Positions 55,453 to 59,252 of a DNA stretch of 64,000 nucleotides are shown one piece after another. Made by a program: the position numbers and the translations under genes. The first letter of the stretch is position 1; every line of letters begins with the position of its first letter. This DNA is from an uncultured Glaciecola sp. GTDB taxonomy: Bacteria > Pseudomonadota > Gammaproteobacteria > Enterobacterales > Alteromonadaceae. The stretch spans positions 6,122-70,121 of the forward strand of contig CAJQOP010000047.1 of NCBI GenBank assembly GCA_905479945.1, in the 5' to 3' direction. A model generated the notes under the pieces. That model saw only the letters and a list, made by a program, of their open reading frames with translations. It did not search any database and was not told where the DNA came from.

Positions 55453-55528
55453 GGACGCTTAGCTCAGTTGGGAGAGCATCGCCCTTACAAGGCGAGGGTC
55501 ACTGGTTCAGGCCCAGTAGCGCCCACCA
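55453..55528 (+). tRNA. tRNA-Val (TAC), variant copy
   Basis: Cloverleaf with TAC anticodon; differs from the next copy at two positions. Confidence 0.93.
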
Positions 55529-55557: not shown

Positions 55558-55633
55558 GGACGCTTAGCTCAGTTGGGAGAGCATCGCCCTTACAAGGCGA
55601 GGGTCACTGGTTCAAGCCCAGTAGCGTCCACCA
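55558..55633 (+). tRNA. tRNA-Val (TAC)
   Basis: Perfect acceptor stem GGACGCT/AGCGTCC, TTCAAGC T-loop, CCA end. Confidence 0.97.
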
Positions 55634-55760: not shown

Positions 55761-56274
55761 CGTAACTCGGTTTCTTTCTAGCCTTTTATTTACAGGGCCT
55801 ACAGCGAAATTAGATTTGTTCGCTATTTTACACGCGAATTTGATTTAAAAGCGCATACTGCGGTTTTTTACTCTTGATATGAGTTAGGCAATCTGAGCAG
55901 TCACAAACCAATTGATTTGTTCTTTTTCTTCTGATTATCAAATTAAGAATTCTGTTATTCGGATGATTGTTGCCAGTTTTTAGTTGTGGCTTTTTCTTGA
56001 TTTTACCCCTGTTTTTAGAAGTAGACGCTATTAAAACATCTTTATTTGACTGGCTGTTCCACGGCAAAACCGGCCGTACTCGGTTCAAAATTGTTAGGGA
56101 AGTTTTTGTCAATTAATGTCGCTTACTGTTGTTTCCATATTTAACCCTTAAACGACAAAGCAGACAGTCGCGACGGTTGTTTTGCAATAGCTTTTAAACC
56201 GAACATTTTTAGTTGCCTAACCGTGAGAGTTTATTTAGACTCAAACTTTGAACGTGCATTTATAAGGATAAATA

Positions 56275-57321: not shown

Positions 57322-57621
57322 TTTTTGCTTATGAAGCCAGAGTTACGGGAAGTGACCATAATAGTTCTATCTTCGACTTTACTGAGAGAGTTAAAGAAAT
57401 CCGTTAAGATTACATACTTCGTCTTTTTTCCTACGACAGTACCACGGCAATTGCGGACGTACGTCGTTCAAATTTGTGTGAGAAGTTCGTGCTTTTGTGG
57501 ACGAATCTGTGGCTTGAAAAAAACTGGCTGTAGCACTGTTGTTTGCCACCATAGCGATGTATGGACTCCACCACTCTAATTAGTTAGCGTGGTAGTCGTC
57601 TAAACCAAAGGAGTCCATACA

Positions 57622-58665
57622 ATGCAAAAGAGTAACGTAATAGGTATCGATTTAGCAAAAAATGTTATCCAAGTATGTGTAATTAGTGCTGACGGTGAAT
57701 TAGTTTCTAATAAAGCAGTATCGCCAAAAAAACTGAAAGAAATATTAGCCAAAACCAAACCCTCTATTGTCGCTTTTGAGGGTTGTAGTGCTTGTCATTT
57801 TTGGGGCAGGTTTGCCCAGCAATTTGCACATGAAGTTAGAATTATTGGCCCTCGAAAAGTAAAAGCATTTCTTCAAGGCCAAAAGACCGATGCAAACGAT
57901 GCTTTAGCGATTGCAATAGCCGTTTCGCAAGTCGGCATGGTATTTAGCCAGCTCAAGTCTAAAGACCAGCAAATATTACAAAGTATCGAAACTAGTCGTA
58001 AGTTTATAGACAAACAGTTGGTTGCTTTGATGAATCACATGCGTGCCTACTTGTATGAATATGGAATTACCACAGCGAGGGGCAAAAAGAGCTTCTCGCA
58101 GTTAGTGGCCAATATACTAGGCGGCAGTGTTGATGGATACTCTGAACTACCGGTCAGTTTAATCCCACCATTACGTACAATGTGGGAGCGCTACGAGCAA
58201 ACACTTGAGCAACGCTAGGATATTGAAAAGCAACGTAATATATTAATGAAACAATCCCAGCCATGTCAGCGACTAATTGAGTTAGAAGGGGTTGGTGAAG
58301 TATGCGCTGCTATGTTGTTTTGCAGTTTAGGGGATGGTAAAGGATTCAAAAATGGTCGGCAAGCCTTTGCATATGTTGGCGTGACACCTAAGCAATTTAG
58401 TTCTGGTGGCAAGGTATCCATGAAGGGCATTGATAAAGTGGGCGGTAATAAAGAGCTGCGAGCCGCTTTATATCTAGGCGCATTATCATTTGTTATAAGT
58501 CTACCCGACAAGCCAAAAACAACGAAACAAGCGTGGTTGATATCACTTGTTCAACGGGTTGGTATCAAACGAGCATGTATTGCCATGGCAAATAAAACAG
58601 TGCGAACGGCGTGGGCTTTAATAGCCACAGAAAAGCAATATCAAAAAACACTGTTACCTTGCTAA
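57622..58665 (+). pseudogene. IS110 recombinase interrupted by an in-frame TAG at 58216-58218
   Basis: DEDD RuvC motifs IGIDLAK, AFEG, KTDANDA; the same frame resumes after TAG and contains the Tnp serine motif FSSGGK. Confidence 0.9.
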
Positions 58666-58924
58666 TGATGATAATTACAGTTACATGTAAAAACTAAAAA
58701 AAAGAAACTACGATCTTAAAAGCGTTCTGCAACATGAAAGCGATAATACTTGGTTAAACCAAACTGTTGAAAACCTGTACTGTCCGGAAGCTGTAATAAG
58801 CTACCAAAGCGAAGAGGACAGCAGTGGCTAATACATCGAAGGCTAGAGACATGCAATCTCAATAAGAAGCCGAATATACGCTCGCGACTTAACTCAAAAA
58901 ATCATCAAAAATATGTTGTGAAAC
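58666..58924 (+). ncRNA. Predicted bridge RNA / seekRNA region of the IS
   Basis: Contains four segments matching the reconstructed target and donor junction sites (see findings); exact transcript ends unknown. Confidence 0.7.
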
Positions 58925-59252
58925 TGGTGGAGTCCATATACGGACAGTCGAGTACTCATAATGTCAGCAGCTTAGTCTTACTCCATTTTCGTGGACACAC
59001 TATAATTGTTGTATGGGGTTTCGGTGGTGGAAAATTCATCACTAATTGACGAAGAATCAATCTTAGTGAAATGAAATGTTTTCTAAACTCTACACAAACG
59101 ACTGTGTTTTTCATGGCGTTTTTGCTGATTTCTCAAAAAGCATGAAACGATAGAAATAAAACACTTGCATTGTCCAATCTATTGTCATAGCATAGTGAGA
59201 TGCATTGGGTGCATCAACATTTTATTCTATTTTGTTGTTAGATAGTTGATAT

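What the first reader, a model, noticed from the sequence alone, without database searches (positions are those of the whole stretch)
58666..58942. All four bridge-RNA guides of the IS110/IS1111 element are readable and explain its insertion site
Seen: the element is bounded by a duplicated CG core (57555-56, 58941-42). The reconstructed target is ccaccatag-CG-gacagtcg and the circle junction (donor) is tccatata-CG-atgtatgg. The right non-coding end contains, in order: actgtcCG (58779-86, exact reverse complement of target-right), accaaagCG (58803-11, target-left with 1 mismatch), atacatCG (58831-38, exact reverse complement of donor-right) and atataCG (58874-80, donor-left). Knowledge: IS110-family recombinases use a bispecific bridge/seek RNA with such left/right target and donor guides, located downstream of the ORF in IS1111-type elements. 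Inference: this element is programmed for ACCAAAG-CG-GACAGT and is a new, decodable programmable recombinase system with a CG core. Caveat: ctgtcc can also pair with ggacag at 58816-21, so loop versus stem status is unproven.
Basis: partly seen in the sequence, partly recalled or inferred. Interest (0 to 1): 0.72.

Follow-up and report, generated by a model that had tools for sequence, protein, structure and literature searches.

The report
Bridge RNA of a decayed IS1111 element
The four short matches are real: they are the target and donor guides of a bridge (seek) RNA encoded in an IS1111-type insertion sequence, a mechanism described in 2024, and this copy is an old one with a broken recombinase gene.

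Summary
The novelty is overstated.

- **Element:** window 57557-58940 is a 1384-bp IS110-family, IS1111-group element. It has 14-bp subterminal inverted repeats, CG on both sides, and a 347-codon DEDD recombinase gene broken by an in-frame TAG at 58216-18.
- **RNA:** the 3' non-coding end (58740-58900) folds into two stem/internal-loop/hairpin modules. In 48 relatives 95% of cells pair and 23 of 26 pairs show compensatory changes.
- **Guides:** the four segments sit in the two internal loops at exactly the stated coordinates.
- **Covariation:** the first-loop segments covary with the flanks of each relative. The right guide (n=44) and the left guide (n=20) were each matched by 0 of 20,000 permutations. 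The core dinucleotide also covaries (CG, TG, AG, TA).
- **Caveat resolved:** the alternative CTGTCC:GGACAG pairing has no family support.
- **Target:** the site lies in a ~145-bp dispersed repeat, and uninterrupted copies carry a single CG.
- **Age:** the same insertion occurs in two other lineages, each with a different lesion, so this copy is a fossil.

This matches published IS1111 seekRNA/bridge RNA biology, so it is a new member of a known kind.

The parts
57442..57556 (+). Left part of a ~145-bp dispersed intergenic repeat that contains the target. It ends in target-left CATAG plus core CG (57555-56).
   Evidence: The joined flanks, positions 86-228, recur uninterrupted in G007, G022:C90, G015:C26 and in own-genome contig C30; partial copies lie in C83 and C122.
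57557..58940 (+). IS1111-group (IS110 family) insertion sequence, 1384 bp. It is 1386 bp if one CG is assigned to the IS, following the no-duplication convention of PMC11187229.
   Evidence: The ends are conserved in all relatives as CG|ATGTATGGACTCC ... GGAGTCCATATA|CG. It is the only copy of this IS in its own genome.
57560..57573 (+). Left subterminal inverted repeat, TATGGACTCCACCA.
   Evidence: It is 14 nt and 100% complementary to 58925-58938 (pair I5).
57622..58665 (+). DEDD recombinase gene of 347 codons, interrupted by an in-frame TAG at 58216-58218 (pseudogene).
   Evidence: PF01548 on residues 7-147 and PF02371 on the C-terminal part. Intact 347-aa relatives at 97/94/89% identity carry a sense codon at that position. 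The C-terminal domain is homologous to the ISCro4 and IS621 chains in the PDB.
58740..58900 (+). Bridge/seek RNA gene. This is the extent of the covariance-model match; the true 5' and 3' ends of the RNA are unknown.
   Evidence: Model R1 scores 179.6 bits here and finds the RNA in 15/37 genomes of the genus and 41/401 of the order.
58763..58825 (+). Target-binding module. Helix 1 is 58763-69/58819-25, helix 2 is 58774-76/58815-17, and the inner hairpin is 58789-92/58799-802. The internal loop lies between them.
   Evidence: RNAalifold consensus. Helices 1-3 are 95-97% paired, and all 14 pairs show compensatory changes.
58779..58786 (+). Right target guide, ACTGTC-CG, on the 5' side of loop 1. 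[quoted passage not shown]
   Evidence: Exact 8/8 match. The aligned segment covaries with the right flank in 44 relatives: own 4.0/6 against cross 1.6/6, and 0/20000 permutations reached the observed sum. The footprint is +1 to +8.
58805..58811 (+). Left target guide, CAAAG-CG, on the 3' side of loop 1.
   Evidence: Own 3.9/6 against cross 1.9/6, n=20, 0/20000 permutations. The footprint is -1 to -7.
58827..58885 (+). Donor-binding module. Helix 4 is 58827-29/58883-85, helix 5 is 58841-44/58868-71, and helix 6 is 58846-50/58856-60. The pair 58829 T : 58883 C is broken in this copy only.
   Evidence: Most relatives, including L092, L032, L028 and L030, have G at the position of 58829.
58831..58838 (+). 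Right donor guide, ATACAT-CG. It is the reverse complement of CG-ATGTAT, the left end of the IS.
   Evidence: Exact 8/8 match. A sub-lineage with left end ATGGGATGG has GCCCAT in this segment.
58874..58880 (+). Left donor guide, ATATA-CG, equal to the right end of the IS plus the core.
   Evidence: Exact 7/7 match. Its last two bases follow the right-junction core in relatives (CG, TG, AG, TA) with a few exceptions.
58925..58938 (+). Right subterminal inverted repeat, TGGTGGAGTCCATA.
   Evidence: pair I5.
58941..58970 (+). Second CG copy (58941-42) followed by target-right GACAGT and the rest of the dispersed repeat.

Best explanation
Window 57557-58940 is an IS1111-group insertion sequence. 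Its long 3' non-coding end encodes a bispecific bridge (seek) RNA with two modules, each a stem, an internal loop and a hairpin.

[quoted passage not shown] The two overlap at the core CG.

In the second loop, AUACAU-CG and AUAUA-CG read the joined IS ends (TCCATATA-CG-ATGTATGG) of the excised circle in the same way.

A DEDD/serine recombinase bound to this RNA would recombine circle and target at the core. That places the IS in one orientation inside CAAAG-CG-GACAGT.

Shown here: the anatomy, the conserved fold, the loop position of the guides, and covariation of guides and core with the flanks across relatives.

Inferred from published IS1111/IS621 work: the RNA is made, it binds the recombinase, and it directs strand exchange.

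This copy is a fossil. Its recombinase gene carries a stop codon, one helix pair is broken, and the same insertion is decaying differently in two other lineages.
For: - **Protein:** PF01548 plus PF02371. Invariant D10/E53/D90/D93 and the motif GVTPKQFSSG. Homology to the IS621 and ISCro4 chains.
- **Ends:** a 14-bp perfect subterminal inverted repeat.
- **Matches:** four unique matches at the stated coordinates; all four together arose in 0 of 20,000 shuffles.
- **Fold:** a consensus of six helices, 95.3% paired against about 40% for slid controls, with compensatory changes in 23 of 26 pairs.
- **Right guide:** window ACTGTCCG/CGGACAGT, L028 AATGTCCG/CGGACATT, L030 and L093 AACGGCCG/CGGCCGTT, L063 CTAAGTCG/CGACTTAG, L068 CTATCTCG/CGAGATAG, L069 CCATTGCG/CGCAATGG, L073 CTAACTCG/CGAGTTAG. 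No permutation of 20,000 reached the observed score.
- **Left guide:** L064 TAAGGCG against L066 TAAGTCG, L067 CATAGCG, L070 and L073 CAAAGCG, L090 ATAACCTG, and three or more independent sites ending CAGAACCG for guide ACAGAACCG. No permutation of 20,000 reached the observed score.
- **Empty sites:** uninterrupted copies carry a single CG.
- **Segment order:** it matches the published IS1111 order (PMC11187229).
Against:
- No sigma-70-like promoter was found on the + strand upstream of the RNA.
- The single-sequence fold is not more stable than shuffles (z = -0.49).
- The window's own left guide has one mismatch to its site.
- Right donor guides of many relatives match the left end only partly.
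- The recombinase gene is interrupted, so nothing can work in cis in this copy.
Confidence: 0.9

Rival explanations
1. The conserved 3' region is a structured RNA, or a tnp 3' UTR, with a role unrelated to target choice, such as transposase regulation or a host-directed small RNA. On this view the flank matches are incidental.
For: Many solo copies of the RNA plus right end persist without any recombinase remnant. ISPpu9 has a comparable downstream small RNA, Ssr9, with solo copies (PMC12288879 abstract).
Against: The loop segments, not only the stems, change together with the flanks of each element, and so does the core. An unrelated function does not predict that.
Confidence: 0.04
2. The matches are DNA-level features: internal copies of end and target sequences that the protein recognises as DNA, or that were captured during past recombination. 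No RNA guide is involved.
For: The donor-matching segments are nearly invariant across the family, as protein binding sites would be.
Against: The segments lie in the loops of helices maintained by compensatory substitutions, which is selection on an RNA fold. Top-strand and bottom-strand matches alternate as in experimentally proven seekRNAs.
Confidence: 0.04
3. The four matches arose by chance.
For: The segments are short (7-9 nt) and the region is A+T-rich.
Against: All four together arose in 0 of 20,000 shuffles. The family covariation is independent evidence.
Confidence: 0.01

Closest known systems
IS1111-family seekRNA elements: ISEc11, ISPa11, ISKpn4, ISPst6 (Siddiquee et al. 2024, PMC11187229)
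   Same: The DEDD recombinase is 330-350 aa. Subterminal inverted repeats are present. The long non-coding region lies downstream of tnp. The top-strand-complementary segment is 5' of the bottom-strand-complementary one, and the two overlap in the target. The target is a repeated sequence. No duplication occurs beyond the shared core.
   Different: The target (CAAAG-CG-GACAGT in a ~145-bp repeat) and the sequence differ. The closest annotated plasmid-borne relatives reach only 57% protein identity (Vibrio). No experimental data exist, and this copy carries a nonsense codon.
IS621 bridge RNA (Durrant et al. 2024, PMC11208160; Hiraizumi et al. 2024, PMC11208158)
   Same: A target-binding loop is followed by a donor-binding loop. 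Each loop has one guide per DNA strand, and both guides include the core. The recombinase C-terminal domain is homologous.
   Different: [quoted passage not shown] Here the RNA lies in the right end and the 5' side reads the top strand. The core is CG rather than CT. The inverted repeats are long and subterminal.
Predicted IS1111-group bridge RNAs, e.g. ISPa11 in Fig. 6 and Extended Data Fig. 10 of PMC11208160
   Same: The RNA is predicted in the right end, with loops complementary to target, donor and core.
   Different: That survey covered ISfinder entries. Whether this element is among them could not be checked, because no ISfinder copy was available. No Rfam 15 family matches the RNA.
ISPpu9 / Ssr9 of Pseudomonas putida (PMC12288879)
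   Same: A small-RNA gene lies downstream of the transposase gene of an IS110-family element inserted in repeats. Solo RNA copies occur elsewhere in the genome.
   Different: Only the abstract was read, so no sequence or structure comparison was made.

Membership tests
IS110 family, IS1111 group | N-terminal DEDD (RuvC-like) transposase domain | tested here: met
   PF01548, E = 1.5e-13, residues 7-147. D10, E53, D90 and D93 are invariant among six homologues.
IS110 family, IS1111 group | C-terminal PF02371 domain with the motif G(L)-P----S(T)G | tested here: met
   PF02371, E = 1.5e-17. GVTPKQFSSG at residues 253-262. The region aligns to the ISCro4 and IS621 chains.
IS110 family, IS1111 group | Subterminal inverted repeats of about 7-17 bp with short terminal extensions | tested here: met
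   A 14-bp perfect repeat at 57560-73 / 58925-38. It is inset 3 nt from the left end and 2 nt from the right end, or 5 and 2 if CG is counted in the IS.
IS110 family, IS1111 group | The longer non-coding region lies downstream of tnp | tested here: met
   275 nt downstream (58666-58940) against 65 nt upstream (57557-57621).
IS110 family, IS1111 group | An intact transposase of 330-350 aa | tested here: not met
   The frame has 347 codons but is interrupted by TAG at 58216-18. Intact 347-aa relatives exist. This makes the copy a pseudogene; it does not remove it from the family.
IS110 family, IS1111 group | Site- and orientation-specific insertion with no duplication beyond the shared core | tested here: met
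   Empty repeat copies carry one CG where the occupied site has CG on both sides. A 99%-identical IS in G015 sits at GATAG-CG, TAAAG-CG and CG-GACTGT.
Bridge RNA / seekRNA | Two stem / internal-loop / hairpin modules conserved by covariation | tested here: met
   Six helices, 95.3% of cells paired, 23/26 pairs with compensatory changes, and 0/500 shuffles as high.
Bridge RNA / seekRNA | Each loop holds one segment complementary to the top strand and one to the bottom strand, overlapping at the core | tested here: met
   58779-86 and 58805-11 for the target; 58831-38 and 58874-80 for the donor.
Bridge RNA / seekRNA | Guide segments covary with the flanks of each element | tested here: met
   Right guide n=44 and left guide n=20, each with 0/20000 permutations reaching the observed score.
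Bridge RNA / seekRNA | The RNA is transcribed and co-purifies with the recombinase | not testable with these tools
No + strand promoter was predicted.
Bridge RNA / seekRNA | Reprogramming the guides retargets insertion | not testable with these tools
   This needs a bench assay.
Integron attC site (considered for the ~145-bp target repeat, since some IS1111 elements target attC) | Imperfect palindrome that folds as a hairpin, with R''/R' core sites | tested here: not met
   The single-strand DNA fold is -10.6 kcal/mol, z = +1.3 against shuffles. No RYYYAAC/GTTRRRY pair was seen by eye.

The most novel reading that the evidence does not exclude
In this IS1111 clade, donor and target may need to share only the first 'core' base. 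The second base (G of CG here) would belong to the IS left end on the donor side. On the target side it would be read independently by the right target guide.

Three sub-lineages show junctions that differ at that base in a fixed way. The left junction keeps the donor base and the right junction keeps the target base.

- **Own genome, multi-copy relative:** an empty site reads TTCG-CA-AGG, the one left junction seen has CG, and 7 of 7 right junctions have CA.
- **G018 copies:** left junctions have CA and right junctions have CG.
- **L080 and L086:** left junctions have TA and right junctions have TG.

A 2-nt staggered exchange with a mismatched core, resolved at random, would give mixed outcomes.
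Probability: 0.3. Interest if true: 0.5.

Novelty: new member of a known kind. Interest (0 to 1): 0.3.

Why it matters
The finding adds a well-supported natural family of IS1111-type bridge RNAs from marine-type gammaproteobacterial genomes. The RNA was found in 41 of 401 sampled genomes of the order. Guides, footprints (5+2+6 bp) and four different cores are readable directly from sequence, and intact recombinase orthologues exist in metagenomes. That is useful raw material for surveys of bridge recombinases. It does not change the picture set out in 2024. For annotation, the window's element should be called an IS1111-group pseudo-element with an associated bridge RNA, inserted in a dispersed repeat between an S9-peptidase gene and an hlyD-type gene.

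Tried and rejected
- **Rfam:** scanning the element found no family, only two sub-threshold snoRNA chance hits.
- **Single-sequence fold:** the MFE of 58666-58942 was uninformative (z = -0.49) and paired the two target guides partly with each other. The family consensus replaced it.
CTGTCC:GGACAG is 51.6% paired against 50.0% for shuffles, so it was rejected.
- **5' hairpin:** a candidate at 58750-62 is a conserved GGU..ACC motif, but its pairing lacks covariation support.
- **The search for related loci:** the genome-contig scan returned only one relative. The genome search with DNA and with the covariance model was far more productive.
- **Other copies in the genome:** there are none of this IS. 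A second, different IS1111-type element is multi-copy.
- **attC hypothesis for the target repeat:** rejected. The repeat also has no Rfam match.
- **Promoter:** no sigma-70-like site on the + strand upstream of the RNA.
- **Left ends:** they could not be found for about half of the relatives, which are truncated, solo modules or at contig ends. The left-guide sample is therefore smaller than the right-guide sample.
- **Exceptions:** some relatives fit poorly. Examples are L076, which has a 10-nt deletion of its left guide, and L075, L088 and L089.

Full report
**Observation.**
- CG lies at 57555-56 and at 58941-42.
- The element begins ATGTATGGACTCCACCA and ends TGGTGGAGTCCATATA.
- The four segments are at the stated coordinates: ACTGTCCG (58779-86), ACCAAAGCG (58803-11), ATACATCG (58831-38) and ATATACG (58874-80).
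- Each is the only match of its kind in 58666-58924.
- In 20,000 dinucleotide-preserving shuffles of that region, the single matches arose in 0.2-1.9% of trials, two or more in 0.025%, and all four never.

**The element.**
- The frame 57622-58665 has a DEDD_Tnp_IS110 domain (PF01548) and a Transposase_20 domain (PF02371).
- An in-frame TAG at 58216-18 interrupts it.
- Intact 347-aa relatives at 97, 94 and 89% identity exist in metagenomes and carry a sense codon at that position.
- The C-terminal domain aligns with the solved bridge recombinases ISCro4 and IS621.
- A perfect 14-bp inverted repeat lies subterminally at 57560-73 and 58925-38.
- The non-coding region is 65 nt upstream of the gene and 275 nt downstream.
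- These are the defining features of the IS1111 group of the IS110 family (PMC11187229; PMC11208160).
- The genome holds only this one copy of this IS.

**The RNA.**
- DNA searches in related genomes gave homologous right ends.
- An alignment of eight of them gave an RNAalifold consensus of two consecutive stem/internal-loop/hairpin modules.
- A covariance model built from it found the RNA in 15 of 37 genomes of the genus and 41 of 401 genomes of the order.
- On the 48-sequence model alignment, 95.3% of cells form standard pairs. Controls with the 3' partner slid by 1-3 columns gave 32-42%.
- Of 26 pairs, 23 have compensatory changes, and no shuffle of 500 reached any observed measure.
- In window coordinates the helices are 58763-69/58819-25, 58774-76/58815-17, 58789-92/58799-802, 58827-29/58883-85, 58841-44/58868-71 and 58846-50/58856-60.
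- The four segments therefore lie in the two internal loops.
GGACAG instead forms the 3' strands of helices 2 and 1.

**Covariation of the guides.** For each relative I took the loop segments from the model alignment and the flanks beyond the conserved ends.

Right guide against right flank, exact pairs:

| Locus | Guide | Right flank |
|---|---|---|
| window | ACTGTCCG | CGGACAGT |
| L028 | AATGTCCG | CGGACATT |
| L030, L093 | AACGGCCG | CGGCCGTT |
| L063 | CTAAGTCG | CGACTTAG |
| L068 | CTATCTCG | CGAGATAG |
| L069 | CCATTGCG | CGCAATGG |
| L073 | CTAACTCG | CGAGTTAG |

- Over the six bases beyond the core, own pairs match 4.0 of 6 and cross pairs 1.6 of 6 (n=44). None of 20,000 permutations reached the observed sum.
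- The left guide matches the left flank at 3.9 of 6 against 1.9 of 6 (n=20), again with 0 of 20,000.
- Clean left-guide contrasts are L064 TAAGGCG against L066 TAAGTCG, and L090 ATAACCTG.
- Three or more independent insertion sites end in CAGAACCG for a guide ACAGAACCG.
- Per-position rates place the right guide footprint at +1 to +8 and the left guide footprint at -1 to -7.
- The window's own site, CATAG-CG-GACAGT, has one mismatch to the left guide.
- The core is also encoded. The last two bases of the left donor guide are CG, TG, AG or TA, and the right junction follows them, with a few exceptions.
- The donor guides are nearly invariant because the ends are. A sub-lineage with left end ATGGGATGG has GCCCAT in the corresponding segment.

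**Target and history.**
- The joined flanks are part of a ~145-bp dispersed repeat (window 57442-57556 plus 58943-58970).
- Uninterrupted copies in other genomes read ...ACCATAG-CG-GACAGTCGAG... or ...ACCTAAG-CG-GAC[A/C]GTC..., each with a single CG.
- The own genome has a few further copies or partial copies of the repeat.
- One diverged copy lies upstream of the S9-peptidase gene. It reads CAAAG-CA-GACAGT, a perfect match to both guides except for the second core base.
- The same insertion, next to the same hlyD-type gene, is present in a metagenome contig (L092). There the recombinase gene is intact, but the right end and 90 nt of flank are deleted and helix 2 is damaged.
- In genome G022 only the last 198 bp remain at the same site.
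- The window copy has the nonsense codon and a T at 58829 (G in most relatives) that breaks a helix-4 pair.
- The insertion is therefore old and is decaying independently in each lineage.

**Mechanism.** By analogy with ISEc11, ISPa11 and ISKpn4 (PMC11187229) and IS621 (PMC11208160), the steps would be as follows.
1. The RNA binds the recombinase.
2. Loop 1 pairs with both strands of the target around the core.
3. Loop 2 pairs with both strands of the joined ends of the excised circle.
4. The recombinase exchanges strands at the core.

[quoted passage not shown] It is the reverse of IS621, where the 5' side reads the bottom strand. The anatomy, fold and covariation are shown here. Transcription, binding and catalysis are inferred.

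**Comparison and novelty.** Bridge RNAs were predicted in the right end of 93% of IS1111 elements, and seekRNAs were demonstrated for four of them in 2024. This element meets every sequence-level criterion of that class. It is a new member, not a new kind. The closest annotated plasmid-borne relatives are 57% identical at the protein level, in Vibrio. No Rfam family covers the RNA.

**Side observations.**
- The own genome also holds a different, multi-copy IS1111-type element. All seven of its right ends are followed by CAAGGATGACGG, its right guide is UCAUUCUUG, and one empty site reads CCTTCGCAAGGATGACGG.
- In that element and in two other sub-lineages, the two junctions differ at the second core base in a fixed way. 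This is the basis of the novel case.
- Solo copies of the RNA plus right end, with no recombinase remnant, are common.

Noticed in passing
window 57442-57556 + 58943-58970; diverged copy about 56049-56175: A ~145-bp dispersed intergenic repeat brackets the S9-peptidase gene and carries the IS target. Copies occur in the own genome and in several genomes of the genus (8 matching places in G020, 7 in G026, some only partial). It is not palindromic, has no Rfam match, and lies next to toxin-antitoxin pairs in two other genomes. Its nature is unknown.
   Followed up: partly
own genome contigs C13, C17, C28, C43, C50, C59, C97 (right ends), C110:24455 (left end), C3:147 (empty site); locus L043: A second, multi-copy IS1111-type element with its own bridge RNA breaks the assembly at seven or more places. 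All right flanks read CAAGGATGACGG. This matches its right guide UCAUUCUUG apart from one G·U pair.
   Followed up: partly
L043-type copies (own genome); L037/L049/L052 (G018); L080/L086: The left and right junctions differ at the second core base in a fixed way. The left junction keeps the donor base and the right junction keeps the target base. The pairs are CG/CA, CA/CG and TA/TG. In these elements donor and target share only one identical base at the crossover.
   Followed up: partly
L030, L031, L032, L038, L040, L042, L044, L045, L051, L078, L085, L089: These are solo modules of bridge RNA plus right end, with no detectable recombinase remnant. They are reminiscent of the solo ssr9 copies reported for ISPpu9.
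   Followed up: no
L076 (= L010, G046:C12): A relative has a 10-nt deletion that removes its left target guide and the 3' strand of helix 2. Its right flank (CGTATATG) is the reverse complement of an IS right end rather than a match to its right guide.
   Followed up: no
L093 (JGI metagenome contig): A complete 1387-bp relative has an intact 347-aa recombinase gene. Its right guide matches the flank 8/8, but its left guide matches only 4/7. This may be a half-matched insertion.
   Followed up: no
window 55453-55528 and 55558-55633: Two tandem tRNA-Val(TAC) genes lie about 0.4 kb upstream of the first repeat copy. The S9-peptidase, IS and hlyD region may be an island next to tRNA genes.
   Followed up: no
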